From a virus (lineage: Duplodnaviria; Caudoviricetes), in the IMG/VR virus record IMGVR_UViG_3300030101_003030, positions 1 through 56,598 of that record: a stretch of 56,598 nucleotides of DNA; one strand, given 5' to 3'. Shown here in pieces: positions 9,524 through 56,598 of the stretch (positions are counted from its first letter, which is position 1; every line of letters begins with the position of its first letter). A program made the position numbers and the translations under genes. The notes beneath the pieces were generated by a model, which was given only the letters and a program-made list of their open reading frames with translations, was not told the origin of the DNA and did no database searches.

Positions 9524-9524
9524 C

Positions 9525-10389: not shown

Positions 10390-10439
10390 CTTGTTTGGTT
10401 TTGTGAGGGGCAAAAGCCCCTCTGATTAATTAATTTTTT

Positions 10440-10670: not shown

Positions 10671-10709
10671 ATTGTTAGGTTTTGTGAGGGGATTGCTCCC
10701 CTCTAGTTG

Positions 10710-10925
10710 TTATATATTTTCTATATTTATGTTTATAGATAATGAATTTTGAATTAATGTTTTGTTGATGACTTCAATTAAAACTTCGTTTAAAAGCGTG
10801 TCAATGTCGCCTAAACCCGACCAATTATTTTCTTTTTTAATTTGAGTATTAATATTTTCATTCTCAATAATTTTATTTAGTTTATTTACTAAAAATTCTC
10901 TTTGTAATTGTGTTAATTCTTTCAT
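10710..10925 (-). CDS. Hypothetical early protein
   Basis: Motif A at start. Confidence 0.7.
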   Translation of the reverse strand: MKELTQLQREFLVNKLNKIIENENINTQIKKENNWSGLGDIDTLLNEVLIEVINKTLIQNSLSININIENI

Positions 10926-10931
10926 CTTATT

Positions 10932-11324
10932 TTATTTTATGGTTAATCCTTTTAATTTTACTATGCTAATATTATTTATTAAATACTCTTTAATTTGCTC
11001 AAAATTTGTGCATTGTGGCGTGTTTATTTGTTTTTCACCTTTCAATGCTAACTTGTTTAATTCAGGTGCAAACTTATGTATTTCAATGCCTATTATTAAA
11101 GAGTTAAATTTTTTGCTGTTTACAAATGTTTTTTTCTCTTGTTTCTCTTGTTCTAAAATACTTTGTTTAGCAAAGTCAAATTTTAAAACTTTTTCAATAT
11201 CAATATTATTTAATCTGTTAATATTTTTATTGTATTCATCAAGTATCATTTTATTGGTAATATTCTTTTTAAAAATACTTGGGGCTTCATTTAACTTTTT
11301 TTCTATAAATTTTATTCTGTTCAT
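10932..11324 (-). CDS. Hypothetical early protein
   Basis: Motif A at start. Confidence 0.75.
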   Translation of the reverse strand: MNRIKFIEKKLNEAPSIFKKNITNKMILDEYNKNINRLNNIDIEKVLKFDFAKQSILEQEKQEKKTFVNSKKFNSLIIGIEIHKFAPELNKLALKGEKQINTPQCTNFEQIKEYLINNISIVKLKGLTIK

Positions 11325-13050: not shown

Positions 13051-14658
13051 ATGAATCAACAACAAGGATACTCTCCTAAAGATCTAAACTTTGGAGAGAT
13101 AGGACGTAATAAGTTAAAGAGTGGTATCACTAAAATTTCAGAAGCAGTAAAGAGTACCTTAGGACCTAGGGGTAATACTGTGCTTATTGAATCGCCACAG
13201 CACACCTCAAGCATAACAGTTACTAAAGATGGTGTTACTGTAGCTAAGGCTGTTGATCTAATGGATCCGGTGGAGAACTTAGCGGTCAAGATGATGAAGC
13301 AAGCTGCGGATAAGACCGCAAGTGTTGCAGGAGATGGAACGACTACAGCTATAGTATTAACTGAGGCTATTGTGAAGGCAGGTGATGAGTTTATGAGTGA
13401 TGATCACAATAGAACTGAGGTATTAAGGGAATTGAACAGAACGAAAGATTATATTGTTGAGTCCCTGCAGAAAGACTCACAAGAGTTGAGCACGAAAAAG
13501 TTACAAGATGTAGCCACTCTATCAGCGAACAATGATAGTTTTATAGGTGAGTTGATAGCAAAGACATATAGTGAAGTGGGTAAGGATGGCATAGTAACGG
13601 TTGAGAAATCACAGAGTGCTGACACTTACTATGAGAGTACGAATGGTTTAAAAGTAGATAGAGGATATTCATCTGAGTTGTTTATTAACAATCACAAAAA
13701 GGATGAGTGTATATTTGATGATGTTAGGATCTTAACATCAGATGCTGAGATAAGTAATGTCTTACAGATTGAGGCGGTATTGAAACCAATCATATCAGAC
13801 GGGAAGAAGTTATTGATCATTGCACCTTGTTCACAGAACGTGATTAATACACTAGCTGCCAATGTGATGAAGAACAATTTAAAGATATGTGTAATACAGC
13901 CACCTAACTTTGGATACAAGCAGCATGAGCTGATGAGTGATATTGCTGTGGCTGTAGGGGGGAAATATTTCTCAGAGAAGACAGGCGATGATCTGAGTTT
14001 AATTAACTTTGGTGACTTGGGTTATGCATCAAGAGTGATAGTGGGTAGGAACTCATCGGTTATCATCAAGGATGACAATCGTACTACTGAGGATGTACAG
14101 AAGAGAGTGGATGAGCTATGGGATGCTCACGCCATCACAGAGAAGAAACAAGACAAGGAATTTGTGCTGTCGAGAATTGCCACCCTTACGGGCGGCATAG
14201 GTGTTATCCACGTTGGAGGCGATACTGACATACAACAAAAAGAGTTGTATGATAGAGTTGATGATGCTGTATGTGCAGTACGCTCTGCACTTGAAGATGG
14301 TATATTACCGGGAGGTGGCGTTTCATTATTACACTACGCTGACTACTACAAGAACAAACATTCAAATGATAAGAATAAAAATGTAGCATATCAGATAATG
14401 GCTCAGGCATTAACAGCACCTGCTACGCAGATCCTAGCTAATGCAGGAAAAGATGTAAAGAAGATATACAAGCACCTGCCTCCTGTCAATCATGGGTATG
14501 ATGTGAAAAAAGAACAAAATGGAAACTTAATTGAGATGGGGGTAGTTGATCCGACAAAGGTTACAAAGAACGCACTGATCAATGCAATGTCAGTAGCTAC
14601 AACCATACTAAGTACAAATGCAATAATCACAATGGCACGCAGTTATGAAACCAATTAA
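13051..14658 (+). CDS. groEL: Chaperonin GroEL (Cpn60)
   Basis: TLGPRG, TKDGVTVAK, AGDGTTTA, DRVDDA, GILPGGG, GVVDPTKV. Confidence 0.98.
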   Translation: MNQQQGYSPKDLNFGEIGRNKLKSGITKISEAVKSTLGPRGNTVLIESPQHTSSITVTKDGVTVAKAVDLMDPVENLAVKMMKQAADKTASVAGDGTTTAIVLTEAIVKAGDEFMSDDHNRTEVLRELNRTKDYIVESLQKDSQELSTKKLQDVATLSANNDSFIGELIAKTYSEVGKDGIVTVEKSQSADTYYESTNGLKVDRGYSSELFINNHKKDECIFDDVRILTSDAEISNVLQIEAVLKPIISDGKKLLIIAPCSQNVINTLAANVMKNNLKICVIQPPNFGYKQHELMSDIAVAVGGKYFSEKTGDDLSLINFGDLGYASRVIVGRNSSVIIKDDNRTTEDVQKRVDELWDAHAITEKKQDKEFVLSRIATLTGGIGVIHVGGDTDIQQKELYDRVDDAVCAVRSALEDGILPGGGVSLLHYADYYKNKHSNDKNKNVAYQIMAQALTAPATQILANAGKDVKKIYKHLPPVNHGYDVKKEQNGNLIEMGVVDPTKVTKNALINAMSVATTILSTNAIITMARSYETN

Positions 14659-26946: not shown

Positions 26947-28062
26947 ATGGAAATAAAAGTAAAAGCAATAGAAGGGAGTGGCGAAAAAAGCACTCAAGAA
27001 GTAGAAAAAGAATTACTTGAAAAGCACGAAGAACAACTTGAAGATTCTTCAGTTGAAGTGCAAGAAAAAACGGAAACTCCTGTAGAGGAAGTTCCACAAG
27101 TTGAATCGAAAGAGGAAACAAAAGAAGAAGCATCCTTAACGGATGATGACGTTCTTTCATATATTGAGAATAGGTACGGAAAGAAAATCAATTCATTTGA
27201 TGAGTTGATGACAGAGCGTGAGACATCAGAAGAATTACCTGAAGATGTAGCCGCTTACTTTAAGTACAAAAAAGATACAGGTCGTGGCATTGAAGATTAT
27301 GTTAAGTTACAACGAGACTTTGATTCAATGGAAAGCGACCATTTGTTAGCTGAATACTATATGGCTACAGAAGAAGGTTTAGACCGAGAAGATGTAGAAG
27401 ATATGGTAGATGATTTTTCGTATGACGAAGACATTGATGACGAGAAGGACATCAAAAAAATGAAGCTAGCAAAGAAAAAAGAAATTGCAAAGGCTAAGAA
27501 GTTTTTCAATGAGCGGAAGGAAATGTATAAACAACCCCTTGAGTCAAGTACGGTTGGAATGTCTGATGAAGCCAAGAAACAACTAGAAGAGTACAAGCAA
27601 TATGTAGACAATGCAAAGTCGTATGAAGAGGAGAACAAGCGTAAGAGCGAGTGGTTCGTAAAGAAGACAGATGAAGTGTTTGACAATGAGTTCAAAGGTT
27701 TTGAGTTCAAGTTAGATGACCGAAGCGTTACTTACTCTCCTGCAGATGCAGCAGAACTGAAGAAGGCACAGATGACTCCAATGAATTTTGTAAATAAATA
27801 CTTGGATGAAAATGGATTAATGAAGGATGCAGCAGGATACCACCGGGCATTATCTATAGCTATGAACCCTGAGAGGTTTGCTAAGTTCTTTTATGAGCAA
27901 GGTAAATCAGAAGCGGTAGACGGAGTGATGCGTAAACAAAAGAATGTCAACATGACAACACGTAAAGCACCTGAGACTGTTAATAAAGGGGGATTACAAA
28001 TTAAAGCTATGAATCCTGATTCAGGACGAGGGCTTAAAATTAGAAGTATAAAAAGAAAATAA
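26947..28062 (+). CDS. Scaffolding protein
   Basis: Acidic helical protein between portal and capsid. Confidence 0.75.
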   Translation: MEIKVKAIEGSGEKSTQEVEKELLEKHEEQLEDSSVEVQEKTETPVEEVPQVESKEETKEEASLTDDDVLSYIENRYGKKINSFDELMTERETSEELPEDVAAYFKYKKDTGRGIEDYVKLQRDFDSMESDHLLAEYYMATEEGLDREDVEDMVDDFSYDEDIDDEKDIKKMKLAKKKEIAKAKKFFNERKEMYKQPLESSTVGMSDEAKKQLEEYKQYVDNAKSYEEENKRKSEWFVKKTDEVFDNEFKGFEFKLDDRSVTYSPADAAELKKAQMTPMNFVNKYLDENGLMKDAAGYHRALSIAMNPERFAKFFYEQGKSEAVDGVMRKQKNVNMTTRKAPETVNKGGLQIKAMNPDSGRGLKIRSIKRK

Positions 28063-40784: not shown

Positions 40785-42320
40785 ATGGCAAAGACAGACA
40801 ATACAAATCCTAGAAGCTACAAAAGAACAGTAGATTGGGGTGCTATAGGTAAGCAGTTTACTGATGCTATCGTAGATACAAAGACCAAGCAAACTGAGAC
40901 AGCAAAGAAAGGCTTTGAGGCACAGAAAGAACGTGCTAAGGTAAAAAGGGAAAGAGCAGAAAGAAAAGAAGTTTTTAAGGATGAAGCCATAGAGTTTGCA
41001 AGACTTCAACGTGCTAATCAGCGTGCCATTCAAACCAATACTAAAAGTAGGAATGATATTACCTTGGCAGTTACTAGTCAAGGTGTTGATAAGTACAATG
41101 AATTGTTTCAAGGATTTAAGTCAGGAAAAATAAGTGAAAGAGAGTTCCTGCGTTCACGACAAAACCTAAAGGATGGGTTTAGTAATTATTTTAGAATAGC
41201 TAAAGAATATAATGACATGAAAGCTAATGCTGAAAAGTCAATAGCAGAAGGAGGATCTAAAACAATTACAGATTTTATGTTAGGTCAGCTTGAGTCATTG
41301 CAGAATACTGAGGAGCTAGAAGTATCATTCACTGACAAAGGACAATGGAATGTAAGTTATTTAGATGGAGTTACTCAAACAAAGCAAGAAATGCCTATCG
41401 AAACATTTGGTGTTATAGGTAGAGTTAACTACAGTGGTTTTGATGAGGAGACAGCAGCTAAAGAAATAGATGATACTATAGGTACGTTTACTAATCAATA
41501 TGGAAATGTAATAAAAATTGATCCTAGAGACAGACCTGACTATGAGAATTTGATAGATAAAAAACTAAATGTAGCACTAGGCAATGCAGGTCAGCTAGCA
41601 TCATATCTTTTAGATAATATTGATGTAGATGAAAATGGTGAACCGTTTGAATTAACTTTTGATCCTAAAGTAGCTGCCACTAATAAAAACTACATCTTAG
41701 TAACTATAAGTAACAATGATAGTGTCCCTACTTTTCAAGTTTCTGATGAAGCAAAAGAGTATGCTAAACAAAAATTAAAAGAACAAGTTGAAGGTCGCTT
41801 TGATATTTCTAAAAAAGTAACTAGAAACAGAGGCGGTGGCAGCAGTAGAGGCGGCGGCGGCGGTGGTGGCACTACATCGAAACCTACTTTTGTTCCCTTG
41901 AGTAGTGATAGGGAGTTGTTTACAAAACTTATAGCATATGAAGATAAAATAGGTGGGGGCGAAGGAAGGTCTAGACTTGAGATTGCAACAGGTGCTATAA
42001 GGGAGAAAAGGTTCCCCATGGAAGAGAGGGATGAAGTAAAAGCTCTTTTAGGTGGAGAGTTTGATAGTGAAGGAAACCTATCTGTAAAAGGTGATAAATA
42101 TTATCGCCCTGCAGTGGTAAGATATTTAGCAAACACAGGGTTTTTGCCACCGGGTACTGAACTAATAACTGAAGAGAAAGATGGCGTTTTAAAAATAAAC
42201 CGAGAGGCATTACAAAAAGCAGATCAATACATAGAGGGTGTGACTACAGGTACAATAACTCCTCCTTCAGGCTCAAACTCAGGGACAGGATCTAAATATA
42301 AAATTGAAGGAAAACCATGA
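40785..42320 (+). CDS. Internal virion/ejection protein (medium)
   Basis: VDWGAIGK, helical, Gly-rich linker; position. Confidence 0.6.
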   Translation: MAKTDNTNPRSYKRTVDWGAIGKQFTDAIVDTKTKQTETAKKGFEAQKERAKVKRERAERKEVFKDEAIEFARLQRANQRAIQTNTKSRNDITLAVTSQGVDKYNELFQGFKSGKISEREFLRSRQNLKDGFSNYFRIAKEYNDMKANAEKSIAEGGSKTITDFMLGQLESLQNTEELEVSFTDKGQWNVSYLDGVTQTKQEMPIETFGVIGRVNYSGFDEETAAKEIDDTIGTFTNQYGNVIKIDPRDRPDYENLIDKKLNVALGNAGQLASYLLDNIDVDENGEPFELTFDPKVAATNKNYILVTISNNDSVPTFQVSDEAKEYAKQKLKEQVEGRFDISKKVTRNRGGGSSRGGGGGGGTTSKPTFVPLSSDRELFTKLIAYEDKIGGGEGRSRLEIATGAIREKRFPMEERDEVKALLGGEFDSEGNLSVKGDKYYRPAVVRYLANTGFLPPGTELITEEKDGVLKINREALQKADQYIEGVTTGTITPPSGSNSGTGSKYKIEGKP

Positions 42321-45300
42321 ACGAAGAAGCAATAAGAGACGGGTATAACTATTTTGTTAGTACAGGATACAATGGGACTTATGATGATTATGTTGCCTTG
42401 ATTAATGGAAATGAAAACGCACTCAATGATACCTATTTACACTTTACATCTACAGGTTATAACGGGGGTATAGATGACTTTAAAACTTTAATGGGTGTTG
42501 GAACTAAGATACAGGAGAAAGTAGAAGTTCAACCTAAAACCCCTATAACTAAAGGAGTAAAAGGAGTTGCTTCTGAAATATTAAATATTAAAAAAAAAGA
42601 AGATACGGAATCAGCATCAGAGGATGGTTCATTGGTATCACCAAAAGCTACTACAGTTGAGGAATTTAAAGAGATGTATATGGGTAAAAGTGACCCCATA
42701 ACAGTAGAGCAGGCAAGTAAAAAAATAGATTTTAATTCTCTTAAAACTGAAGAAGAACGAGTAACCTATTCCAATATGGATGAGGAAACTAAACGTACAT
42801 ACAATAATTTATCGGATGAAATAAATAGACTTCAAACAAAACTAGATGATCAACTTAAACAACCATCTAATCCTTTTCAAGAGCAGTCTATTGCTAATAC
42901 TAAAAATCAATTATCTTTTAATAAAAAAACAAGAGAATTATTATATAATCAGAATAAACCTGTTGATCCCATACTTGGACCCCAAGATGATGTGAATTGG
43001 TTTAGTGAAAGTGTAGAAAAAATAGTTAATCCAAGACTGATAGCAGGTGAAGGAGCATTATCAGGAGGGATAGAAGAAACTGTAGTCAATCAATTAAATT
43101 ATACTTTTGGTGATTATGGTTTTAAATTTGAAGAGGCAGATTACTTGGGCGATGGGATGAATGTATATACTGCTACAGGTGAAAAGCTCTATATTGATTT
43201 AGATAATTTTACAGATGCTAATAATAAAAAAGAATCTGAAAAACTTAAAAAGTTTTTATACGATAATAAAAGGTCTAGTGAACTTGCATATTCTATGGAT
43301 AAAGGCCCTATAAGAAAAACCAAAAAGTATAGGGACGAGAAAGAACTGCAACGTGAGATGAAAATGTTTCAGTATAAAACAAATCAATTTCAAAAAGAAA
43401 CTCAAGATTTTATAAATAAAAGAATATCTTTTGAAGAAAAAGTAAAAGAGTTTAACAAAAAGGCACAAAAAGAAGGGGCCACTGAAGAGAATATTTTATT
43501 GCAACAAGAAATTATTAAAGAGCAAGAAGAATTAACTGCAGAAGCAAAGTTGTTAGAAGAAAAAAATAATGATTTTGCAGGAAGAGGACAGGAGATAGAT
43601 AAGCTCACAGCAGAATATTATAATGTTCTTGAAGATAGAGGAGGTTTCTTTGGAACTACAAACTCTATGTTTATGGAGGGAGTGGGAGAGATAGTAGCAG
43701 GAGCAGTGGAGACAGGAAGAATGCTACCTGAAATAATAGGTGATACATTAACTTTTATTTCAGGCAAAGCATTACAAGGAGTAGGATATGTAACAGGAGA
43801 GGACATTGAAATGAAGGATGTTAATATCATTCCTACTTCAGCACTTATAGACAACTATGATTACTATCTTTTAGAAGCAGCAAAAGAAAAAGGATACAAA
43901 TCTATTGATGAACTTCCTCCAAATATTAAAAATGAAATAGATCGTGACCTTAGAGATAAAGCAATCAAGACACAGTTATATGGAAAGAAAGGTCAAAGCA
44001 ATCCTTATTCTAAATATACCAATCAATTACTTAAAGACAGAAGCGGAGGTGTATTAGATAATATAAGAGATGGTTTTAGAACAGCGTTAGGAGAAACATC
44101 AACAAGACAATATGATGAAGACTTTCAAAACTCATGGCTTGGTCAAGTGTATGCCGGAACTATTAAATCTGTTCCTGCCATTTTATCTTTATTCTTAAAT
44201 CCTGTATCAGCAGGAACTAAAGCAAGTACAATAGCAAAGAGAGCGTTGAACCCAAAAGAAAGTTGGGCATTGATATTTCAATCTCAAGATGCTATCAGTC
44301 AGCAAATGAATACTGCTGAGTTTGAAAACGTAAGTGAGACAGAGAAACTTGCAGTGTCAGTTCCTATTGCTCTAACTACTGCTACTCTAGAAAATATTGG
44401 GTTTCGTAACATGAGTAAGTTGAAAGGTTTTACCAATGGTATTCTAATGAGGGCTTTAGGTAGGACAGGAGGTAAGCAGGTAACAGCCAAAACATTTGAA
44501 GAGATAATTAAAAATGAAGTAAAAAGTTTAACAGCAAAAGGTCTTCTTACTATGGGTGCTATGGGAGCGGCTGAGTTTGAAACAGGACTTGCTCAAGAGT
44601 TTGCAGACGTTACAGTTAAACAAATTTACAATGCTGTTAAAGGATCTGAAATGTTTGAGACTCCTGAATCATTAGCTGAATACACTTTACAATTATTAAA
44701 TAGTGGAGCTCAAGAGGCAGTAGGTGCACAGATTTTAGGTATGCCTAAAACTGTTTCTGTATTGGCAAGTAAAAATGATTTGAAAGCTGCTGACAATGCG
44801 ACATGGAATTTGTTTACCAACCTAAATAACAAGCCTACATTTTTAGGTTTATTCAAAGAACATTTAGAGGTAGAGATTCGTAATAAAAGAATGAGTGCTG
44901 CAGAAGCTAAAAGAGTTTTTGAAACTTACAAAAACACTACGCAGGCTTATGAGCAAATACCTAAAGATATGTCACGTGAAGCTCAGAAAGAATCTGTTGA
45001 TTTGATAATGAGAAGACAGGCTTTAGAAGAAAGTAAAAGAGATAAGAACCCTAATCTTGTTGTACCTATTGACAATGAGATACAGGCAATCGACAATAGG
45101 TTAAAAGAAATATCAGAACAGGATGCCATTCAAAAGCAAAGCACAGGAAAAGTGGATGCGAATCAACAAACCTCGGATGCACAAACAGTGGAGACAGGAG
45201 AATCCACAACAGAGTCTCAAAAACTTACCGGAGAGGAACTCCAAGATCAGGAAGCAGATGCAGTCCAAGAGGTAACTGAAGAAGAAGTTAAAAAAGAAAT

Positions 45301-48300
45301 AAGTGGTATAGTAGCTGAAACAGCGTTGCCATTAAAATTAGAAACAGGGAAGCTAGGAACTGTATCCAAGAAAATGGATCAGGCTGAATTGATAAATGAA
45401 AAAGAAATTAATGAGGCGGCAGATGAACTGTATGACCTAATGGATGAGGTAAATAACAGACAAGATATATCCGAAAATTCTAGAAAAAAAATATTAAATG
45501 AAATAGAAAGTGAAATAAGAAAATTAGAAGCATATGAATTTGAAACAAAAACTGAGACTCGCACACTTACCAAAAAAGAAAAGGTTAAAGGTATTAGAAA
45601 AGTTGGAACAGATACAAAAAGGCAAAAAGTAATACCATCTACTTTAGGTAAATCTAAAGGCAAGACAGTCAGGTTTATTGGTAAGACACAGAAAGAAGTA
45701 GGAGGTAAAGGTGTATTGACAACAGAAACACGACCTGATGGTAAAGAAGTTTTCATAGTAGAATATCCATCCGGACAGAAGAGTGTGGTGAATGAAACAA
45801 TGGAATCACCTGTAGTCAACAAAGATAAGAACGGAGATCCTGTAAGTGTAACCCTAACAGATAAAAGCGGTAATCAACTTACAGTGTTGGATGCTGACTA
45901 TGCATTAGATGAAGCTATTATTCAAAGAGAAAATGCTCTTGGACCTATTGAAGAAAATGTATTTGAACAAGTATTAGAAGAGGTTGAAAGAGAAGTTACT
46001 GAACAACAAGAAGTTATAAAAGAAAAACAAGCAACACCTGAAGCTGTTGTTACGGAAGAAGTAGTGACTGAAGAAGCAGTAGAAAAAACTCCTGTTGCTA
46101 AAGAGACAATAGACGAAAGCCTTGAGTCTTTATTTGATGAGATAGTAGGTGAACCTAATACAACTGAAGATGCTCCAATTAAAAAACAAAAGACAGAGGT
46201 TGAAAGTGTTACTGTTAACAGATCAAGCGACAGACCTTTTAGTTCTCCTATTAAAAAAATTATTGGGCAGGCAAAACGTGCAGCAAAGTCAATAAAAAAT
46301 ATTGCTCCCAATGTAAAGATAATCTTACACGAATCAGAGGCTGACTACAGAAACTCTGTGCCGGGAGCACAAGATGGAGAAGCAGGTGCATTCAATGCAG
46401 GAACTAACACCATTCACATTAACCTTCCTAATGCTGCTGCAAGAACTAATATAACTACAGTAGGGCATGAAACTTTTCACAGCATACTATTTAATCTATT
46501 CAACAATGAGGCGTTAACACAGGCGTTCTCAAGAGATATGTTGGAGGGATTAAAGAAGGCTTCTGTAAAAGGTTCTGCTATTGAAAAACAACTTGATGCG
46601 TATATTAAACAATATGATGATCAAGGCGTACACAATGAGGAGAAGTTGGCTGAGATCTTTGGGTATCTTGCAGGCAACTATGAAACCTTAGATGTAAAGT
46701 CTAAAAATATTCTAAAGAGACTTATAGAAAAGCTAGCTAAGATTTTAAACATAGCAAAATATAAAGCTAAGTTTACTGAGGATGATGTGGCTATGGTTAA
46801 GCTAATGAATAACTTATCAGCTAAAATATCTGAAGGAATAGAAATAACAGAGGCTGATATTCCTATAGAAGTATCAAAAAGAAAAGAACAGCAGCAAAAT
46901 TTAAAAAGACAATTAAAAGAAAAAATAAATGAAAAAGAAAAAACAACAGCAGGAAGCAGGCTCATCAATGAGCCCTTACAGGATGCGACAAAAATTGCTA
47001 ATAGATTTGCAAAAAGAAAAGGCTTCTCTTTTAGAGGAGATGAGACAAGCACAGAGTTCAACAAAGAGCGTGCAACAAGGATAGCCAAAGCCTATGAGGC
47101 AATGGCTAATGATCCTAATAACCCTGAAGTAAAAGCAGCGTATCAAGCCTTGATTGATGAAACTCTTGAGCAGTATCAAGAGATATTAAAAGATGGCTAC
47201 GTTGTAGAGATTGACAATGAAGATGCTTACAATAATTCTCAAGAAATGATTGAGGATGTAAGAGAAAATAAAAGGTTAAAAATCTTTGCAACAGAGGCAG
47301 GTTTTGGTGACGTACAAATTACAGATGAACAAAGAAAAAGAAACCCTCTTTTACAAGACAGTGGGCTAAAAGATGTTAACGGAAAAATACTTTTAGTTAA
47401 TGATGTGTTTAGATTTGTTCATGACTTCTTTGGTCATGCTAAAGAAGGCAATAGCTTTGGTCCAAAGGGAGAAGAGATAGCTTGGAGAGTTCATTCGCAA
47501 ATGTATTCTCCGCTTGCAAGAAGGGCGATGACTACTGAAACTAGAGGTCAGAACTCATGGGTAAACTTCTCAGGTGTTAATGAAGAGGCTTTTAAATTAC
47601 GTGATAAAGCGAGACAACTAAGGAAAGAAGGTAAGCTTGAGGAGGCTTTAAAGTTAGTTGATCAGGTATATGAGATGATGTCTTTTGCAGAACAAAAGAT
47701 AGGACTGTTACCTGTCGAATTTACAGTATTAGAAAAACAACCAAGTATAAAAAGACAGTTAGGTGACACTAATAAAATAAATGAATTTGTAAAACAAGCA
47801 AAAGAAAAAGGAGCTACAGATAGTGCTATTAAACTTGTGCTTGAATCTAGGGGGGTAACTAAAAGTGTTATAGATAAAATATTTGCTGCCAAGGTACGAA
47901 CCAAGAGACCACCTTCAGCAGCTAAAATATTAGGTAAGCCAAAGCCTAAAAAGGTAACGGCAAATGAAATGACATTGCTCAAAGAAAAGATAAGAGCCAT
48001 TGCAAAAGAAACAAGAAGTGTAGGGGTAGCAGTAAATAAAATACGTAAAGAGTTACAACGTGAGATAGCACAAATAGGTAAGGGAAGAAAGGTAGAGCTT
48101 TCACCTGCGACATTAACTAAGATAACCTCACGTATTAATAAAGCAAAGTTATTTACTAAAGAAGGAACGCTTAACAATGAGATGATTGATGAGATCGTTC
48201 AGTACATTGATGAGCAATACACTACCCTTGAAAGGAAAAAAGAAAATGTAGCTCTTAACAAAAAGAGAAAGACAGCATTAAAAAATATTATGTCCGGCAA

Positions 48301-51300
48301 GTTGGGAGTGCCAAAAGTAATAACGAGACAAATGCAAAGATTGTTTGCGGCAGACTCCACTCTTATTCCTGACTCAGCTTTAAATAAATATAAAGCTCTA
48401 GTCGAATCCATAGGGGAAAGAACTAGCGTTTTAACAGTGGATGAAGTATCACAAGTAGAAAGACAAGTTGATTCTATATTAAAAGATCTTGACTTCAGAA
48501 CATCTCAAATAGATATATATGCTGAGATGTATAAAGACTATGATAAAAAAGTAAAGAATGCTGATGGAAGTATTAGCTATTCTAAAACCATAGATAAGAT
48601 GGTGGATGATGGTGAACTTAATTTATCTACCGAAGATGCTGCACTAATGAAGAAGTTTAAAAAAGAAATACTTCCTCCGCCTGAACCAAAAACTAAAGAA
48701 GAAAAACAAAAAGAAGAAGAAGAAGCAGCAATAGAAAAAGAATTATTTCTTGAAGAGATTGGAGAGCTGAGTATAAAATCAGACAAGCTAACAACTAGGG
48801 ATGAGAGAAAGGTTGCTAATAAATTAAATAAACTTATAAAAACAGACGGAGTAAAAGACCTGAGCAACAATGATTTAAAAAAATTAATAAAGATCATTGA
48901 CAATATAAATAACGGATGGCTTCCTCACCTATCACAAATAATGGTAGAGAAGATCAATAGTAATAATAGATCTAAAATAGTTTCATCAGCTATTCGGAAA
49001 GCTAAAGTATTTAGTCCTCTTCAACAAGCTAAAAAATTAAGAGCCTTACTTAATTCTCAGCTAAGTCCTGACGGAAGAAGAAAGAATAAAATATATCAAG
49101 CAGTGTCAGTGCGTTCACTTAGTTACATAGACTCAGTGATAGGGCTAAAGGGAAGAGAGATATTTAAAAATATATTCGACTCAACAGCTAAAGCGTTTAC
49201 AAATTTTGATTCAGACAACAACAAAGTAAACAAGCGTATAGATGAAGCATTAAATAAAATATCAAAATCATACAAAAATAACAACAATAAAATACATGAG
49301 GCAAAAGCACGTATGATGACATACTTAATTCAAAGAGAGTTTGAGTCTAATCCTGAGCGAGTGGGAGAGGTTAACCCTGCAATAGATTATTTAAACGATA
49401 CTATTAAAAATGAAAGGGAACAAGGTAATGAGGGTGAGGCTGATATGCTTCAAAACATAATAGATAAGTATTCTATAGAGGGAGAGCTCGATGCAGATGG
49501 GAAACCTACTAAAGAAATATCTCTTGATAAGATATATAAATCTTTTAACAAGGCAGAACTAAATGGCATTAAAGTTATTGATGAAGTAAATAAAGAGCTA
49601 ACTGATATAGCAGAGTTTACTGCAGGTGTAGTAAGAGGAAAGATAATGAGTCCTATTGTAGACTACATTCATATGTGGGTCAAACAAGATAATACACAGC
49701 AACAATTTGAAGATAAAAACTCTGACTTTAATTCTTACATGAAGGGTACTAAGCCATCCACAAAAGCTAAAAACTTAGAGGAAAGAACACAAAAATCTAA
49801 GGCTATAAATTTTGATCCCTTTGGAGCAACAAGAAGAGGGGCAAGAATGACCTTGCTTGATTACCACATGACACCTGTAGTGAGAGAAACAAACAGAACC
49901 CTTAGAAAGACAAAAGATATTTTAGAAGAGGATAACAAACAAACAAGGGAGATATTTAGAGGGGTTAAGGCAGCATACGATCAAGTAGTAGAGGATGTAA
50001 TAGGAAGAGGATTTAATAGTAGCTCAGTAGGAGATAATGCTATTAAGTATATAGCTAAGGCAGGTTATCGAACAATGCTTTCGAGTCCTGCAAGAATGAC
50101 ATTAGAATTTCTCGCCAACCTTCTTAATGCAGGCGTTATAAATCCATTAGGGTTTGCTAAAGGGTTTAGTGTGATGAGTAAATTAAGCGGACAAGAGCAG
50201 GCGGAGCTTCTTAGAATTTTAGAATCAAAACAACAAACAAGATTATATTCGGATGCTTTAAAAGGAAGAATGGTAGATACAAGTATTATTGAATCAAAAG
50301 CAGGAATACAAAACACAAAACTGAAAGGAGAGGTAATTAATAGAGCATCTCAAATTGGATCTTATCTTAGAAAATATCCTTCGGGTATAGAGTTTATAGC
50401 TGACACCATGATTACCACTCCGGATAAAGCGGTAATGCGACCTTTGTGGTTAGGAACTTTTAGCAGAGAGTTTAAAAAAATAACAGGCAAGGAAATAGAC
50501 ATGGATAAAGTTCTTGCAAAGGATGAGGCATACTTAAATAAAAACCAAGAGGCACTCGATAAGGCAACTGAAGTAGCTGATAGAGATAGTATATTTTCAG
50601 GATACACTGACAATCCTTTTATGAAAGTTATTAGTGGAACAAAAAGGTCGGAAACAAAAATAGATCCAATAAAAAATATATATAAAGACTACAACAGGTT
50701 TATGTTAAGTTTTTTATTGAACGAATATGAAACGACAAGATATTCTATTAATGTTCTGTATGAAGGAGGAGAAATATCAAGAATAAAAGCAGGGCAACTA
50801 TTAGCCGCTACTACCTCACGTATGGTTTTATATACTTCTTTGATTGGATTAGTAGGGAATGTCTTTGCAGACTTTATAAGAAGCATGTTCGGAGCCGACA
50901 TGGAAGACGAAGAAGAAGAGAAAGATTTAACCCTGTCAATAGGTCAAGGATTGGTTTCTACTTTTAATACCTTAGCTTTTGGAGCATCTTACGGACAGTT
51001 TATGAGAAGTATAATTAATAACCCTTACTTTGGAACTGAATACTTTAATGAAAAATATCTTACTGCTCTGCAAGAAGGAGAGTATGATCCATACAAAGAT
51101 GCTATAGGGTTCTCTGCATTCACTAAACCTACAGGGCAGGAAAAATATAAAGGAAAAAATACTTTCAAATTTTTTGTAAACTTTTTAGGTCCTTACTCTC
51201 CTCTAGCAAAAACATTTGATAAATTCTACACCATGAAAACAAGAGAAGAGGAGGCTAAAAAAGAAGAAACAAAAGCAAGAAGATCTCAAGAAGAAATACT

Positions 51301-51505
51301 TCTAATAATGCAAGGTTTAGGTCATTTTAACTTAATCCCTTTCTTTAAAGATGTCAACAAAGCATACACAAGAGAAGTGTATAAAGACTTTAGAAAGGCA
51401 GAGAAAGAAATAAAGAAAACGTCAAGAGAAAAAAGAGCGGAAAAATATTTAAAGAAAAGAAAGGATAGAAGAAAAAGATATTTAGACAGAAGAAAGAGAG
51501 AATAA
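42317..51505 (+). CDS. Giant ejection/polyvalent protein (3062 aa) with zincin HExxH and HDxxGH domain
   Basis: GHETFH...EEKLAE; VHDFFGH...TETRGQNSW; last gene of virion arm. Confidence 0.8.
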   Translation: MNEEAIRDGYNYFVSTGYNGTYDDYVALINGNENALNDTYLHFTSTGYNGGIDDFKTLMGVGTKIQEKVEVQPKTPITKGVKGVASEILNIKKKEDTESASEDGSLVSPKATTVEEFKEMYMGKSDPITVEQASKKIDFNSLKTEEERVTYSNMDEETKRTYNNLSDEINRLQTKLDDQLKQPSNPFQEQSIANTKNQLSFNKKTRELLYNQNKPVDPILGPQDDVNWFSESVEKIVNPRLIAGEGALSGGIEETVVNQLNYTFGDYGFKFEEADYLGDGMNVYTATGEKLYIDLDNFTDANNKKESEKLKKFLYDNKRSSELAYSMDKGPIRKTKKYRDEKELQREMKMFQYKTNQFQKETQDFINKRISFEEKVKEFNKKAQKEGATEENILLQQEIIKEQEELTAEAKLLEEKNNDFAGRGQEIDKLTAEYYNVLEDRGGFFGTTNSMFMEGVGEIVAGAVETGRMLPEIIGDTLTFISGKALQGVGYVTGEDIEMKDVNIIPTSALIDNYDYYLLEAAKEKGYKSIDELPPNIKNEIDRDLRDKAIKTQLYGKKGQSNPYSKYTNQLLKDRSGGVLDNIRDGFRTALGETSTRQYDEDFQNSWLGQVYAGTIKSVPAILSLFLNPVSAGTKASTIAKRALNPKESWALIFQSQDAISQQMNTAEFENVSETEKLAVSVPIALTTATLENIGFRNMSKLKGFTNGILMRALGRTGGKQVTAKTFEEIIKNEVKSLTAKGLLTMGAMGAAEFETGLAQEFADVTVKQIYNAVKGSEMFETPESLAEYTLQLLNSGAQEAVGAQILGMPKTVSVLASKNDLKAADNATWNLFTNLNNKPTFLGLFKEHLEVEIRNKRMSAAEAKRVFETYKNTTQAYEQIPKDMSREAQKESVDLIMRRQALEESKRDKNPNLVVPIDNEIQAIDNRLKEISEQDAIQKQSTGKVDANQQTSDAQTVETGESTTESQKLTGEELQDQEADAVQEVTEEEVKKEISGIVAETALPLKLETGKLGTVSKKMDQAELINEKEINEAADELYDLMDEVNNRQDISENSRKKILNEIESEIRKLEAYEFETKTETRTLTKKEKVKGIRKVGTDTKRQKVIPSTLGKSKGKTVRFIGKTQKEVGGKGVLTTETRPDGKEVFIVEYPSGQKSVVNETMESPVVNKDKNGDPVSVTLTDKSGNQLTVLDADYALDEAIIQRENALGPIEENVFEQVLEEVEREVTEQQEVIKEKQATPEAVVTEEVVTEEAVEKTPVAKETIDESLESLFDEIVGEPNTTEDAPIKKQKTEVESVTVNRSSDRPFSSPIKKIIGQAKRAAKSIKNIAPNVKIILHESEADYRNSVPGAQDGEAGAFNAGTNTIHINLPNAAARTNITTVGHETFHSILFNLFNNEALTQAFSRDMLEGLKKASVKGSAIEKQLDAYIKQYDDQGVHNEEKLAEIFGYLAGNYETLDVKSKNILKRLIEKLAKILNIAKYKAKFTEDDVAMVKLMNNLSAKISEGIEITEADIPIEVSKRKEQQQNLKRQLKEKINEKEKTTAGSRLINEPLQDATKIANRFAKRKGFSFRGDETSTEFNKERATRIAKAYEAMANDPNNPEVKAAYQALIDETLEQYQEILKDGYVVEIDNEDAYNNSQEMIEDVRENKRLKIFATEAGFGDVQITDEQRKRNPLLQDSGLKDVNGKILLVNDVFRFVHDFFGHAKEGNSFGPKGEEIAWRVHSQMYSPLARRAMTTETRGQNSWVNFSGVNEEAFKLRDKARQLRKEGKLEEALKLVDQVYEMMSFAEQKIGLLPVEFTVLEKQPSIKRQLGDTNKINEFVKQAKEKGATDSAIKLVLESRGVTKSVIDKIFAAKVRTKRPPSAAKILGKPKPKKVTANEMTLLKEKIRAIAKETRSVGVAVNKIRKELQREIAQIGKGRKVELSPATLTKITSRINKAKLFTKEGTLNNEMIDEIVQYIDEQYTTLERKKENVALNKKRKTALKNIMSGKLGVPKVITRQMQRLFAADSTLIPDSALNKYKALVESIGERTSVLTVDEVSQVERQVDSILKDLDFRTSQIDIYAEMYKDYDKKVKNADGSISYSKTIDKMVDDGELNLSTEDAALMKKFKKEILPPPEPKTKEEKQKEEEEAAIEKELFLEEIGELSIKSDKLTTRDERKVANKLNKLIKTDGVKDLSNNDLKKLIKIIDNINNGWLPHLSQIMVEKINSNNRSKIVSSAIRKAKVFSPLQQAKKLRALLNSQLSPDGRRKNKIYQAVSVRSLSYIDSVIGLKGREIFKNIFDSTAKAFTNFDSDNNKVNKRIDEALNKISKSYKNNNNKIHEAKARMMTYLIQREFESNPERVGEVNPAIDYLNDTIKNEREQGNEGEADMLQNIIDKYSIEGELDADGKPTKEISLDKIYKSFNKAELNGIKVIDEVNKELTDIAEFTAGVVRGKIMSPIVDYIHMWVKQDNTQQQFEDKNSDFNSYMKGTKPSTKAKNLEERTQKSKAINFDPFGATRRGARMTLLDYHMTPVVRETNRTLRKTKDILEEDNKQTREIFRGVKAAYDQVVEDVIGRGFNSSSVGDNAIKYIAKAGYRTMLSSPARMTLEFLANLLNAGVINPLGFAKGFSVMSKLSGQEQAELLRILESKQQTRLYSDALKGRMVDTSIIESKAGIQNTKLKGEVINRASQIGSYLRKYPSGIEFIADTMITTPDKAVMRPLWLGTFSREFKKITGKEIDMDKVLAKDEAYLNKNQEALDKATEVADRDSIFSGYTDNPFMKVISGTKRSETKIDPIKNIYKDYNRFMLSFLLNEYETTRYSINVLYEGGEISRIKAGQLLAATTSRMVLYTSLIGLVGNVFADFIRSMFGADMEDEEEEKDLTLSIGQGLVSTFNTLAFGASYGQFMRSIINNPYFGTEYFNEKYLTALQEGEYDPYKDAIGFSAFTKPTGQEKYKGKNTFKFFVNFLGPYSPLAKTFDKFYTMKTREEEAKKEETKARRSQEEILLIMQGLGHFNLIPFFKDVNKAYTREVYKDFRKAEKEIKKTSREKRAEKYLKKRKDRRKRYLDRRKRE
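45123..45275 (+). CDS. Nested out-of-frame small basic protein (50 aa, MPFKSKAQEKWM...LPER)
   Basis: +1 frame inside the giant gene; resembles the recalled MPFKS..Q..WM..P...W..E.P..LPER phage family; A at -3 and A-rich upstream. Confidence 0.65.
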   Translation: MPFKSKAQEKWMRINKPRMHKQWRQENPQQSLKNLPERNSKIRKQMQSKR

Positions 51506-54680: not shown

Positions 54681-54872
54681 TTAGTCACGAGGTGTGCCTA
54701 CATAAATCTCTCTCTCTAGTTCTTTTATATTTTCTTTTAGTTCATTTACTTTATTACACGTATGGTTTAAAGATTCAATTAGCTCTTTTTTTATTTTAAT
54801 AAGTGTAATTATAACGCTTTCCTTATGCTCAATTACTTCTTGCATGTGTTTTATTTTTTCATCTTTTGTCAT
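54681..54872 (-). CDS. Coiled-coil hypothetical protein
   Basis: ATGA overlap with helicase. Confidence 0.7.
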   Translation of the reverse strand: MTKDEKIKHMQEVIEHKESVIITLIKIKKELIESLNHTCNKVNELKENIKELEREIYVGTPRD

Positions 54873-56098
54873 ATAAATTGTTTTTTAAAATGGTTAAGTG
54901 TATAATCTTTCTTCTTGGTTACTGTTTTATATATCTGCTTTTCAATGCCACCTTTAGCAAAGATCCAATACACATCGTTATGTAACCTGTCTTTAGTGGT
55001 CATCCTATCTCTACTCTGCCAATAAGACGTAGCACTAAAGTCAATGTTATAATACACAAGTGCTGATGCCTGTCGCAATGACAGTCCCTCCCTACCACTA
55101 ACAATCTGCAGGGCTATTGACTTGTCAGTAGATTCAAACTCACCAAGCTCAGTGGTAAGCTCATCACCAAACACATCCTTCATTGCCTTGAGTTCTGCTG
55201 TAAACTTGTAGAAGATTCCAATCTTCTTACCCTTGAAATGTTTCTTAATAAACTCAGCCTTACTGTAGTCCATCACCATAGAACTGCCTGACTCAAACTT
55301 AACTGTGCCTGAGAACATCTGATGTAACTTCATCATTAACTTTACAGGTGTGTCAGCAAGTATGGTTTCTTTCTTTCCCTCGATCACCAAGTCTTTCTGC
55401 AACCTCTTGGTCATATCATAAGTATATGGTTTCATCTCCACCTCTAATACTTTCTCTGTAGTCTTGACCTTAAATCCTGCGTTCTCCTGCGTGAAACGGA
55501 TGGTGTATGGTGTCATCATATCTATAATCTTTTTAAGTCCCTTAGAATAGTCGTTAATGAACATTCCGTTGATTTTTTTCTGTGTTACTTTCACATACTC
55601 ATGAGCAAACTTATAAAAGTTTGTGCAATGCTTGAAAGGATTGTTAGGAATACCATACACCTGATGGTACATCTGTGAGTAAGACTCAGGTGTAGGTGTT
55701 CCCGACATCAATATAACTTTGCTATTACATTTTTGTATCAAATCTTTTACTGACTTCGCTCTCTTGTTTGGCTTGGCAAATGCACCAAGACTATGTGCCT
55801 CATCACATATGATCACGTCCCACTTAACATCAGGTAACTTATGCATACTTTCATAGTTAATTGTAAACAATATATAATTAGTAGGGCATAACATATCAAA
55901 ATCCTTAGTGATTGAGCTGATTGCCTTCTTCTTAGTCAAGAAGAGTACGTGTTCAACATTAAGTTTCTCACATATACCAAGACTTGTTAGTGTCTTTCCG
56001 GTCCTAACTTCCATAGCAAGATATAAGAAGTCGTGTGCTTCTATTATAGATGTTCCTAGTTCTATAATAGATAACTGATAATCTCTGTATTCTATCAT
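54869..56098 (-). CDS. SNF2-like superfamily 2 helicase (start revised to 56098)
   Basis: RDYQ, MEVRTGKT, DEAH, SGTP, GREGLSL, QSRDR. Confidence 0.9.
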   Translation of the reverse strand: MIEYRDYQLSIIELGTSIIEAHDFLYLAMEVRTGKTLTSLGICEKLNVEHVLFLTKKKAISSITKDFDMLCPTNYILFTINYESMHKLPDVKWDVIICDEAHSLGAFAKPNKRAKSVKDLIQKCNSKVILMSGTPTPESYSQMYHQVYGIPNNPFKHCTNFYKFAHEYVKVTQKKINGMFINDYSKGLKKIIDMMTPYTIRFTQENAGFKVKTTEKVLEVEMKPYTYDMTKRLQKDLVIEGKKETILADTPVKLMMKLHQMFSGTVKFESGSSMVMDYSKAEFIKKHFKGKKIGIFYKFTAELKAMKDVFGDELTTELGEFESTDKSIALQIVSGREGLSLRQASALVYYNIDFSATSYWQSRDRMTTKDRLHNDVYWIFAKGGIEKQIYKTVTKKKDYTLNHFKKQFI

Positions 56099-56598
56099 AG
56101 CTTCAATGTTCCTGTTTCTTCTACGTCTTGTTTGCGTAAAAATATTATCCACTTACCATGCTTGTCTCTTCCGTCTTTTGGTTCAACGCCATGGTGGTAC
56201 TTTCCATAATCATTTAACCATCTATAAAATTCAGTACGTGAGATCTTCATATTACCTCTTGATGAATAGTCAGGGTAGTCCTCAATAAACTCCAAGTACA
56301 GATCCTGCTTATATGTTTTTACATTGGGCGTAAGTAATGTATTGAAAGGATAACCCTCAAGTAAACCACACCACTCCAAGAAGTCTTTACTTGTATCTCT
56401 TATGAGGTTTTTAAGATGAGCGTTAACTAATTCACTCTTAACAAAACCTTTTTCTAAGTAATACTGTAAACAACTTATCATGTAGTTATCAAAGATACAC
56501 CACTCATCATCATCCCAATCACCAAACATTAACTTCTTAAACTCATCAAGAGGGGTGAAATGTTTTGAGTAATACTGATGTAACTCAAGTTCCCACTT
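56095..56598 (-). CDS. Primase-helicase, 3' part (continuation of 1-1998)
   Basis: Same frame through the terminal repeat. Confidence 0.9.
   Translation of the reverse strand, partial: KWELELHQYYSKHFTPLDEFKKLMFGDWDDDEWCIFDNYMISCLQYYLEKGFVKSELVNAHLKNLIRDTSKDFLEWCGLLEGYPFNTLLTPNVKTYKQDLYLEFIEDYPDYSSRGNMKISRTEFYRWLNDYGKYHHGVEPKDGRDKHGKWIIFLRKQDVEETGTLKL
56515..56598. repeat. Terminal direct repeat, copy 2
   Basis: Identical to 1-84. Confidence 0.97.

What the first reader, a model, noticed from the sequence alone, without database searches (positions are those of the whole stretch)
45123..45275. Hidden gene nested out of frame inside the 3062-aa ejection protein
Seen: the +1 frame encodes MPFKSKAQEKWMRINKPRMHKQWRQENPQQSLKNLPERNSKIRKQMQSKR*, with A at -3 and an A-rich upstream region (a good Bacteroidota start). 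The main frame there is a disordered-looking linker (DAIQKQSTGKVDANQQ...). From recall, MPFKS..Q..WM...P...W..E.P...LPER is a recurrent stand-alone small phage protein family. Inference: a real overprinted gene, possibly a partner, chaperone or inhibitor of the injected polyprotein's zincin, and invisible to standard annotation.
Basis: partly seen in the sequence, partly recalled or inferred. Interest (0 to 1): 0.8.

Follow-up and report, generated by a model that had tools for sequence, protein, structure and literature searches.

The report
Small gene nested in giant phage gene
A 50-codon gene for a very basic small protein lies in a second reading frame inside a phage's 3062-codon virion-protein gene, and related phages show evolution has preserved it there, where standard annotation does not list it.

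Summary
The +1-frame ORF 45123..45275 exists exactly as described. Its length alone is unremarkable: 48% of codon shuffles give an ORF this long. Comparative evidence shows it is a real coding sequence.

- All five homologous giant genes first fetched keep the ATG and the open frame.
- Against two 80%-identical relatives, 8 and 9 of 10 and 11 substitutions in the overlap fall on host codon position 1, which is peptide position 3. None falls on host position 3. In the flank, 180 of 290 fall on host position 3 (Fisher p=8e-5 and 3e-5).
- Two other alt-frame ORFs in the same gene lose their start or gain stops in these relatives.
- The peptide belongs to a widespread family of stand-alone 40-70-aa phage proteins: 18 phmmer hits and 393 profile hits. 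Its relatives match phrog_1375, function unknown.
- In 48 of 80 viral loci the family member is nested in the +1 frame. The host gene is either a giant virion gene or the scaffold-position gene next to the portal.
- It is also nested and unannotated in cultured Flavobacterium Elemovirus phages.

Translation and function are untested. My best guess is a small capsid-interior or packaging-associated protein with net charge +12.

The parts
45123..45275 (+). Nested gene in the +1 frame of the giant gene: 50 codons plus TAA, encoding a basic two-helix small protein (net charge +12).
   Evidence: The ORF and its translation are. The ATG and frame are kept in 5 of 5 first homologues and in all giant-class and scaffold-class loci. 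Substitutions fall on peptide codon position 3. Stand-alone homologues exist. AlphaFold2 gives mean pLDDT 80.7 with helices 6-15 and 17-26.
45093..45122 (+). Likely translation-initiation region of the nested gene: A-rich, weakly structured, with no Shine-Dalgarno sequence, like this phage's other gene starts.
   Evidence: The MFE of -30..+30 around the ATG is -1.0 kcal/mol. Windows across the giant gene average -6.9, which puts this site at the 4.6th percentile. 25 real gene starts average -3.1. The A fraction upstream is 0.60. Position -3 is A. In other lineages, 8 of 18 unique giant-class upstream regions carry a 4-nt SD core at -18..-5.
42317..51505 (+). Host gene: a 3062-aa giant virion (internal or ejection-type) protein whose reading frame runs through the nested gene.
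   Evidence: The ORF is. It has homologues at 23-84% identity in 17 giant-class loci. It is related to the 3694-aa 'structural protein' of Flavobacterium phage Elemovirus. A relative's host protein matches phrog_6651, internal virion protein.
45122..45271 (+). Host-frame reading of the overlap: an acidic linker (net charge -9) that ends the conserved N-terminal module of the giant protein.
   Evidence: Composition is. Host-frame identity to L002 and L003 is 40 of 50, against 48 of 50 in the peptide frame. L001 is 94-100% identical to the window in 150-nt bins from about the giant gene's start up to the nested ORF's stop, and unrelated after that.
26947..28062 (+). Scaffold-position gene (371 aa, between the portal and the capsid-like protein). 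Its orthologues in a sister phage group are the alternative host of the nested gene. The window's copy carries no nested gene.
   Evidence: It is 37% identical over 281 aa to the 387-aa host in L025. The portal (phrog_6547) and capsid-like (phrog_13704) neighbours are shared. The window holds a single family copy.

Best explanation
Positions 45123..45275 are a genuine second protein-coding gene embedded in the +1 frame of the giant virion-protein gene.

Shown:
- Both reading frames of these 153 bases are under selection. The embedded frame is the more strongly constrained of the two.
- The embedded protein belongs to a widespread family of stand-alone 40-70-aa phage proteins. The family has an invariant N-terminus (M-P-F-K-S-K), a confidently predicted two-helix hairpin, an L-P motif and a lysine/arginine tail.
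- The window peptide is this complete phage genome's only copy of the family.

Inferred:
- Ribosomes start independently at the internal ATG. It sits in an A-rich, nearly structure-free stretch like this SD-less phage's other starts. Relatives from other lineages carry SD-like cores there.
- The small gene is the older reading. The large gene grew or fused across it, so the acidic host linker is the younger reading. Stand-alone members average 4.2 stops in that frame, while nested members have none.
- The same small gene has ended up inside two different morphogenesis genes in syntenic sister phages: the giant internal protein and the scaffold-position protein.

Function is my guess, at about 0.3. 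I propose a late-made, very basic (+12) protein of the capsid interior or packaging machinery. It would bind DNA or the acidic segments of the scaffold and core proteins. The grounds are its gene neighbourhoods and its natural fusions to virion proteins.

The confidence given here is for the gene being real, selected and separately initiated, not for the functional guess.
For: Conservation of the frame:
- ATG and the open +1 frame are kept in 5 of 5 homologous loci, including two at only 43-47% host identity.
- All 80 viral loci fetched with the peptide profile begin M-P-F-K-S-K.
- Giant-class hosts are only 23-84% identical to the window's, yet each keeps the nested ORF.

Phase of substitutions:
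- Window versus L002 and L003, in the overlap: host positions 1, 2, 3 take 8, 2, 0 and 9, 2, 0 substitutions.
- In 2356 nt of flank they take 79, 31, 180 and 79, 31, 184. Fisher p for position 3 is 8e-5 and 3e-5.
- The peptide frame is 48 of 50 identical, the host frame 40 of 50.
- In 27 scaffold-class genes, the entropy at host position 3 is 0.44 in 37 overlapped columns and 1.27 in 292 other columns. The peptide frame is more conserved than the host frame in 332 of 351 pairs.
- The pattern is replicated in giant clades A (p=1e-4) and B (p=0.011).

Negative controls:
- Two other alt-frame ORFs of the same gene lose the ATG or gain stops in L002 and L003. Their substitutions fall mainly on host position 3.
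- The antisense ORF over the same bases gains stops in 6 of 8 more distant loci.

Family:
- phmmer finds 18 hits, the best at 2.8e-9.
- The profile finds 393 small proteins.
- 9 of 10 relatives tested match phrog_1375 at E<=1, and 4 of 10 at E<=1e-3.
- The alignment has invariant M1, P2, S5, Q8 and P17.
- AlphaFold2 gives pLDDT 85-94 over residues 1-30.

Both frames selected:
- The host-type frame has 0 stops in 46 of 46 unique nested copies.
- It has a mean of 4.24 stops in 25 stand-alone copies.

Copy number and start context:
- There is one copy per record in 11 of 11 records searched, including this complete one.

Functional hints:
- The peptide is nested in the giant virion gene or in the scaffold-position gene beside the portal.
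- Stand-alone copies lie next to a portal or adaptor gene (L010, L078, L065, L051), a large terminase (L076), or virion structural genes (L052, L028).
- Natural N-terminal fusions exist to a phage tail lysozyme plus virion structural protein (P0146) and to DUF5661 (P0142).
Against: - No direct evidence of translation exists. No Ribo-seq or proteomics was available. The RNA-library contigs that could be laid do not cover the ORF.
- By length alone the ORF is ordinary.
- The window peptide itself hits no Pfam or PHROG model, even at E<=1. The link to phrog_1375 is transitive.
- The phase signal is absent or not significant in three of five giant clades. Clade C gives 12, 5, 7 (p=0.41). Clade E gives 14, 11, 15 (p=0.87). 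In clade D no overlapped column was aligned.
- The 80 loci are the best tblastn matches to this peptide and include near-duplicates (67 unique peptides). The nested fraction therefore does not represent the family.
- Function is not established. There are no structural relatives in PDB. BFVD returns only uncharacterised small phage proteins at E>=0.12.
- Some stand-alone copies sit beside ribonucleotide reductase (L014, L056), which does not fit a virion role.
- One database protein (P0144) has the peptide in frame with a scaffold-class protein. That could mean fusion products exist.
Confidence: 0.82

Rival explanations
1. The small gene is real in origin but is now an untranslated relic. It was swallowed when neighbouring genes fused, and its frame merely looks conserved because the fusion is recent.
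For: The family is older and mostly stand-alone. The ORF sits exactly at a module boundary of the giant gene. No translation data exist.
Against: The nested state persists across hosts that have diverged to 23-40% identity. The ATG is invariant and substitutions stay concentrated on peptide position 3. A relic would accumulate stops, as the control ORFs do at only 80% host identity. The nested copy is the only copy in 11 of 11 records.
Confidence: 0.06
2. The peptide frame is not a separate product. It is joined to host-frame sequence by programmed frameshifting. Either host ribosomes shift +1 into it, or ribosomes starting at the ATG shift -1 back into the host frame and make an isoform with the peptide as a new N-terminal domain.
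For: The domain is the N-terminus of longer proteins in 63 database proteins and in L032, L034, L066 and L082. P0144 has it in frame with a scaffold-class protein. A -1 shift from the peptide frame does land in the host frame.
Against: No canonical X_XXY_YYZ heptamer and no homopolymer run of 6 or more lies in either frame at 45032..45282. The ORF ends at a conserved TAA in the window, L001, L002 and L003. The M1 ATG is invariant, as expected for a start. P0144 is a single contig and may carry an indel.
Confidence: 0.05
3. Conservation is driven by the host frame or by the nucleic acid itself, for example a conserved cleavage or linker motif (D-A-I/V-Q-K/E-Q-S-T), an RNA structure, or a recombination site. 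On this view the +1 ORF is only its shadow.
For: The host-frame motif recurs in both host classes, and twice in the Elemovirus giant protein. Recombination breakpoints coincide with the ORF's end.
Against: Host codon position 3 is the least variable position and host position 1 the most variable. Selection on the host protein cannot produce that pattern. An RNA or DNA element would not free exactly every third base in the +1 register. Stand-alone homologues conserve the peptide reading while the host-type frame carries a mean of 4.24 stops. The region is predicted to be almost unstructured.
Confidence: 0.03
4. The ORF is a chance alternative-frame ORF with no biological meaning.
For: 48% of codon shuffles of the giant gene give an alt-frame ORF of 50 aa or more. 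Two others of 49 and 51 aa exist in the gene.
Against: All the comparative evidence argues against this.
Confidence: 0.01

Closest known systems
phiX174 gene E inside gene D (recalled textbook knowledge, not from a call)
   Same: A small gene lies wholly embedded in the +1 frame of a morphogenesis gene. In phiX174 the host gene is the scaffolding gene. Here the host is the scaffold-position gene in the sister group and a giant virion gene in the window. In both cases the small gene is translated, or here presumed translated, from its own internal start.
   Different: E is a lineage-restricted, membrane-anchored lysis protein that arose de novo inside an older gene. Here the embedded protein is soluble, very basic and widespread as a stand-alone gene, so it is probably the older reading. 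The same embedded gene also occurs in two unrelated host genes.
Lambda Rz1 inside Rz (recalled textbook knowledge, not from a call)
   Same: A gene fully nested in the +1 frame of a larger phage gene. In other phages the same function exists in separated or merely overlapping arrangements.
   Different: Rz1 is a lipoprotein with a signal sequence, and it pairs functionally with its host gene's product. The window peptide has no signal peptide and no cysteine. Any pairing with the host protein is untested.
phrog_1375 and unnamed clusters of 40-70-aa phage 'hypothetical proteins'
   Same: They share the N-terminal M-P-F-K-S-K-A-Q motif, the two-helix core, the L-P-E/K motif and the basic tail. 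ESM Atlas places the peptide nearest to 43-51-aa viral hypothetical-protein clusters, with scores of 0.94-0.95.
   Different: Those members are stand-alone genes that gene callers find. The window copy is embedded in another gene. The window peptide does not itself reach the phrog_1375 model.
DUF3008 (PF11450)
   Same: It is also a small protein family. The Atlas's nearest cluster with any Pfam label has 15% DUF3008 members, at a score of 0.86, which the tool calls a lead only. My recollection is that DUF3008 has a similar S-K-A-Q start and a late L-P-E motif. That is recalled, not tested.
   Different: No Pfam hit at E<=1 for the window peptide, nor a DUF3008 hit for any of the 10 relatives and fused forms scanned.

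Membership tests
Overlapping (dual-coding) gene | An open reading frame with a start codon in an alternative frame of a gene that is itself intact. | tested here: met
Overlapping (dual-coding) gene | The alternative frame and its start are conserved in diverged homologues of the host gene. | tested here: met
   5 of 5 loci. 21 giant-class loci at 23-84% host identity. Control ORFs are not conserved.
Overlapping (dual-coding) gene | Synonymous variation in the host frame is suppressed, and substitutions sit at the embedded frame's third positions. | tested here: met
   (p=8e-5 and 3e-5), and 103 (clades A and B significant; C and E not significant; D not evaluable).
Overlapping (dual-coding) gene | A plausible translation-initiation signal at the internal start. 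| tested here: met
   The context is unstructured and A-rich, like this genome's own SD-less starts. An SD core is present in 8 of 18 unique giant-class upstream regions from other lineages.
Overlapping (dual-coding) gene | Direct evidence that the embedded frame is translated. | not testable with these tools
   No Ribo-seq or proteomics was at hand. The RNA-library contigs do not cover the ORF.
phrog_1375-like small phage protein family | Significant sequence similarity to family members over the whole core, starting from residue 1. | tested here: met
   phmmer found 18 hits at E<=1e-3, and 13 of them align 1-to-1 at the N-terminus. The conserved columns are shared.
phrog_1375-like small phage protein family | A direct match of the window peptide to the phrog_1375 profile. 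| tested here: not met
   No PHROG at E<=1 for P0001. Relatives match: 9 of 10 at E<=1 and 4 of 10 at E<=1e-3. Membership is therefore transitive.
DUF3008 (PF11450) | A match to the Pfam model. | tested here: not met
   Searches gave no DUF3008 hit. The only link is an Atlas lead at score 0.86.
Programmed-frameshift product | A slippery heptamer or homopolymer at the frame junction. | tested here: not met
   None at 45032..45282 in either frame.

The most novel reading that the evidence does not exclude
The 153-bp segment is a portable dual-coding cassette. An ancient gene for a basic capsid-interior protein has repeatedly been absorbed into, or moved between, the disordered acidic linkers of different morphogenesis genes: the scaffold-position protein and the giant internal protein. 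The +12 peptide and the -9 host segment, read from the same DNA, would be a charge-complementary binding pair. The small protein would dock on the very linker that encodes it, to time assembly, processing or ejection of the host protein. The segment would also serve as a recombination joint for swapping giant-protein modules.
Probability: 0.1. Interest if true: 0.85.

Novelty: new variant of a known kind. Interest (0 to 1): 0.7.

Why it matters
- **Missed by annotation.** Deposited records of 68 cultured Flavobacterium phage genomes match it at sites annotated only as 'structural protein', and the one record I opened lists no small CDS there. The same is true of a complete metagenomic podovirus. 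For this phage the missed copy is the genome's only copy of a widely conserved family.
- **An unusual route to overlap.** A large gene appears to have extended across an older small gene. The same small gene sits inside two different host genes in syntenic sister phages. That makes it a natural system for studying how dual coding is tolerated, and how acidic and basic readings of one DNA stretch co-evolve.
- **A marker for giant virion proteins.** The nested ORF marks a module boundary and recombination joint in these poorly understood proteins of marine Bacteroidota phages.
- **A clean experiment is available.** One host-silent base change removes the nested start in a cultured phage.

Tried and rejected
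**Searches that found nothing**
- Pfam and PHROG scans of the window peptide found nothing at E<=1.
- The word-index protein search with the single peptide found nothing.
- blastn of the region and tblastn of the window peptide against the phage collection found nothing. A family relative (P0010) was needed to reach the cultured phages.
- Foldseek against PDB gave 0 hits. A PDB profile search returned only designed proteins at E about 0.06. BFVD returned only uncharacterised proteins at E>=0.12.

**Complex prediction**
- Complex prediction of the peptide with this phage's portal gave 'no answer': scores 0.00 and 0.00, and the controls were not run. I count it neither for nor against binding.

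**Sequencing runs**
- One metatranscriptome contig is identical over 44563..44718, and another library covers 45912..46170.
- Nothing from an RNA library covers the nested ORF. DNA carry-over cannot be excluded. This says nothing about expression of the nested gene.
- A DNA contig (X3) shows 8 of 10 differences inside the ORF at peptide position 3. It probably belongs to the same lineage as L002 and L003, so I do not count it as independent.

**Homology tests that failed**
- I looked for an unfused ancestor arrangement. The proteins flanking the stand-alone copies in L052 and L066 show no similarity to any host protein.
- The giant N-terminal module was not detected in three scaffold-class records. 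The 2066-aa giant ORF of G002 shows no blast similarity to the window's.

**Other rejected or weak readings**
- The antisense ORF 45113..45268 was rejected as a by-product. It gains stops in 6 of 8 more distant loci.
- Frameshift signals: none found.
- The zincin was not confirmed.
- L075, L076 and L079 were dropped from the nested count. They are high-GC loci, and in L076 the 'host' frame is a terminase whose homology begins at residue 138.
- L054 has a split scaffold-class host of 118 aa, below my 150-aa threshold. I left it out of the count of 48.
- The peptide tree rests on 44 columns, and 48 of its 72 inner branches are unresolved. I use it only to say that starred branches force at least two context changes per group.
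- The actinophage matches (Gordonia, Mycobacterium, Streptomyces) are weak (E 0.008-0.7) and cover only part of the core. I do not rely on them.

**Literature**
- A full-text search for the 8-residue N-terminal motif found 0 papers.
- Two searches on overlapping or nested phage genes listed only general papers. I saw titles and abstracts only.
- Of the Baltic Flavobacterium phage paper PMC7077304 I saw only five passages, and they do not concern the elemo phages.
Full report
**Observation**

The window is a complete 56,598-bp virus record with an 84-bp terminal repeat. ORF 45123..45275 (+) has an ATG, 50 codons and a TAA stop. It lies in the +1 frame of the 3062-aa ORF 42317..51505.

By length alone it is ordinary. 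The giant gene contains 82 ATG-started same-strand alt-frame ORFs, the longest being 51, 50 and 49 aa. In 48% of 1000 codon shuffles at least one reaches 50 aa. Whether it is a gene therefore rests on comparison with other sequences.

**Conservation in homologous giant genes**

A scan of viral contigs with the surrounding host protein returned five loci. One is 98% identical, two about 80%, and two only 43-47% over a short stretch. All five keep the ATG and an open +1 frame.

I compared the window with L002 and L003.
- In the 150-nt overlap, substitutions at host codon positions 1, 2, 3 number 8, 2, 0 and 9, 2, 0.
- In the 2356-nt gap-free upstream flank they number 79, 31, 180 and 79, 31, 184.
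- Fisher's test for position 3 gives p=8e-5 and 3e-5.
- The peptide frame is 48 of 50 identical and the host frame 40 of 50.

Host position 1 is the embedded frame's third position. This is the pattern expected if the embedded frame is the more constrained reading.

Two controls from the same gene behave differently.
- The alt-frame ORFs at 42846..42995 and 43215..43313 lose their ATG or gain a stop in L002 and L003.
- Their substitutions fall mainly on host position 3.
- The antisense ORF over the same bases gains stops in 6 of 8 more distant loci.

**A family, and two host genes**

phmmer of the 50-aa peptide against 1.84 billion representatives gave 18 hits at E<=1e-3, the best at 2.8e-9. 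Most are 43-85 aa, and 13 of the 18 align from residue 1 to residue 1.

Of these, 242 encode a relative, and the best 80 were kept. All 80 start M-P-F-K-S-K, and 67 of the peptides are unique.

In 51 of the 80 loci a frame of 150 aa or more is open across the peptide, always with the peptide in its +1 frame. On inspection these divide as follows.
- 21 are giant proteins. Seventeen of them are BLAST-detectably homologous to the window's at 23-84% identity. One matches phrog_6651, internal virion protein.
- 27 are proteins of 381-431 aa.
- 3 are high-GC loci, which I discount.

The 381-431-aa host is the orthologue of the window's 371-aa gene at 26947..28062.
- The two are 37% identical over 281 aa, starting after a non-alignable acidic N-terminus.
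- The host lies between a portal (phrog_6547) and a capsid-like protein (phrog_13704), exactly as in the window.
- A 52.6-kb record of that class is syntenic with the window, with terminase 69%, portal 51% and capsid-like protein 53% identical.
- That record has giant ORFs of 2066-2584 aa but carries the peptide only in the scaffold-position gene.

Every record searched has exactly one copy: 11 of 11, including the window.

**Replication of the selection signal**
- In 27 unique scaffold-class genes, the 292 gap-free non-overlapped codon columns have entropies of 0.77, 0.50 and 1.27 at positions 1, 2 and 3.
- The 37 overlapped columns have 0.76, 0.54 and 0.44. The peptide frame is more conserved than the host frame in 332 of 351 pairs.
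- Over the first 27 codons, nested sets are most variable at peptide position 3, as are stand-alone genes.
- Giant clades A and B repeat the depletion at host position 3 (p=1e-4 and 0.011).
- Clade C shows only a trend (p=0.41) and clade E shows none (p=0.87). Clade D had no aligned overlapped columns.

The host frame is also selected. It has no stop in 46 of 46 unique nested copies, whereas stand-alone copies average 4.24 stops in that frame.

**Which reading is older**

The peptide reading is the widespread one.
- A 76-sequence profile finds 393 small proteins. The 120 listed carry no Pfam domain and are nearly all named 'hypothetical protein'.
- Relatives match phrog_1375, function unknown.
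- The host reading of the same DNA is confined to two gene families and lies in regions that are otherwise not alignable.

I therefore infer that the large genes extended or fused across an older small gene.

The ORF's end is a module boundary. L001 is 94-100% identical to the window (by 150-nt bins) from about the start of the giant gene up to the nested TAA, and unrelated beyond it. L002 and L003 also diverge there.

A poorly resolved peptide tree still needs at least two context changes per group. One well-supported clade mixes giant-nested, scaffold-nested and free copies.

**How it is probably expressed**

This phage's gene starts have no Shine-Dalgarno sequence and are A/T-rich, as expected for a Bacteroidota host. 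Relatedness to Flavobacterium Elemovirus phages supports that host assignment.

The nested ATG has the features of such a start.
- It has A at -3 and 60% A in the 20 nt upstream.
- It has the weakest predicted structure class in the gene: -1.0 kcal/mol against a mean of -6.9, which is the 4.6th percentile.
- In other lineages, 8 of 18 unique giant-class upstream regions carry a 4-nt SD core at -18..-5, including full GGAGG boxes.
- No slippery heptamer or homopolymer run is present.

Independent internal initiation is therefore the likeliest mechanism. It is inferred, not shown.

**What the protein may do**

AlphaFold2 with the family alignment gives mean pLDDT 80.7, with 85-94 over residues 1-30. 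It predicts two helices (6-15 and 17-26), a loop carrying the L-P motif, and a low-confidence basic tail. No structural or sequence relative exists in PDB.

The peptide has net charge +12. The host reading of the same DNA has net charge -9.

Gene context points mostly to morphogenesis.
- The peptide is nested in a giant virion gene or in the gene beside the portal.
- Free copies lie next to portal or adaptor genes, a large terminase, or virion structural genes. Two lie next to ribonucleotide reductase.
- Among 63 longer proteins that carry the domain, it is usually N-terminal in the ten I read. One is fused to a phage tail lysozyme plus a virion structural family, and one to DUF5661. Several are fused to glycine-rich, hydrophobic proteins, two of which show an H-E-L-G-H motif by eye.

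My best guess, at about 0.3, is a late, basic protein or module of the capsid interior or packaging machinery that binds DNA or acidic scaffold and core segments.

**Cultured phages and novelty**

A family relative matches 68 Flavobacterium phage records (host Flavobacterium sp. BAL314) at sites annotated only as 'structural protein'. In NC_055853 the 42-aa ORF lies in the +1 frame of the 3694-aa gp18, and the record lists no small CDS there. A truncated second copy lies 396 nt upstream. A complete 60.8-kb metagenomic podovirus shows the same nesting.

I found no paper with the motif and no paper describing this arrangement (listings and abstracts only).

Nested +1-frame genes in phage morphogenesis and lysis genes are a known kind. 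Two things are new here. The embedded gene is an old, widespread one rather than a novelty born inside an old gene. The same embedded gene also recurs in two different host genes.

**Verdict**
- Translation and function remain to be shown.

Noticed in passing
window 42317-45275 versus L001 about 900-3860: A separate viral contig (38.8 kb) is 94-100% identical to the window (by 150-nt bins) from about the start of the giant gene up to the stop of the nested ORF. On both sides of that stretch it is unrelated (about 30% identity). The first roughly 986 codons of the giant gene therefore behave as an exchanged cassette, and its 3' joint is the nested gene.
   Followed up: partly
L086 7605-7637 and 8001-8129 (NC_055853.1): The Elemovirus giant gene holds two copies of the nested start. 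A truncated one (10 codons) lies 396 nt upstream of the full 42-codon ORF. The intervening 132 host codons are bracketed by the same host-frame motif, which looks like a duplication or an insertion at this joint.
   Followed up: partly
window 4947-11259 and 54831-54882, minus-strand gene starts: A motif of about 20 nt lies directly upstream of the start codons of 13 small minus-strand genes. On the + strand it reads ..TCAT(A/G)TCTATTT(A/G)TTTT.., where CAT is the reverse complement of the start codon. It may be a shared early promoter, leader or initiation element (families D1-D4 and D7).
   Followed up: no
window 10085-10722: Three copies of a 70-nt unit sit about 285 nt apart between small minus-strand genes. 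Each holds a G+C-rich hairpin (GAGGGG...CCCCTC) and looks like a terminator (family D5).
   Followed up: no
window 13051-14658: The phage encodes a 535-aa GroEL-type chaperonin (phrog_5725, E=7.8e-127).
   Followed up: no
window 1-84 and 56515-56598: An exact 84-bp direct terminal repeat, consistent with a complete, circularly assembled or terminally redundant genome. No tRNA genes were found.
   Followed up: no
protein P0144 (one ENA contig): A 228-aa database protein has the small-protein domain in frame with a scaffold-class protein. This is either a real fusion or frameshift variant, or an indel in a lysine-codon run of that assembly.
   Followed up: no
L054 1114-2243: One scaffold-class host gene is split into two frames while its nested ORF stays intact. 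It may be an assembly error or a natural frameshift.
   Followed up: no
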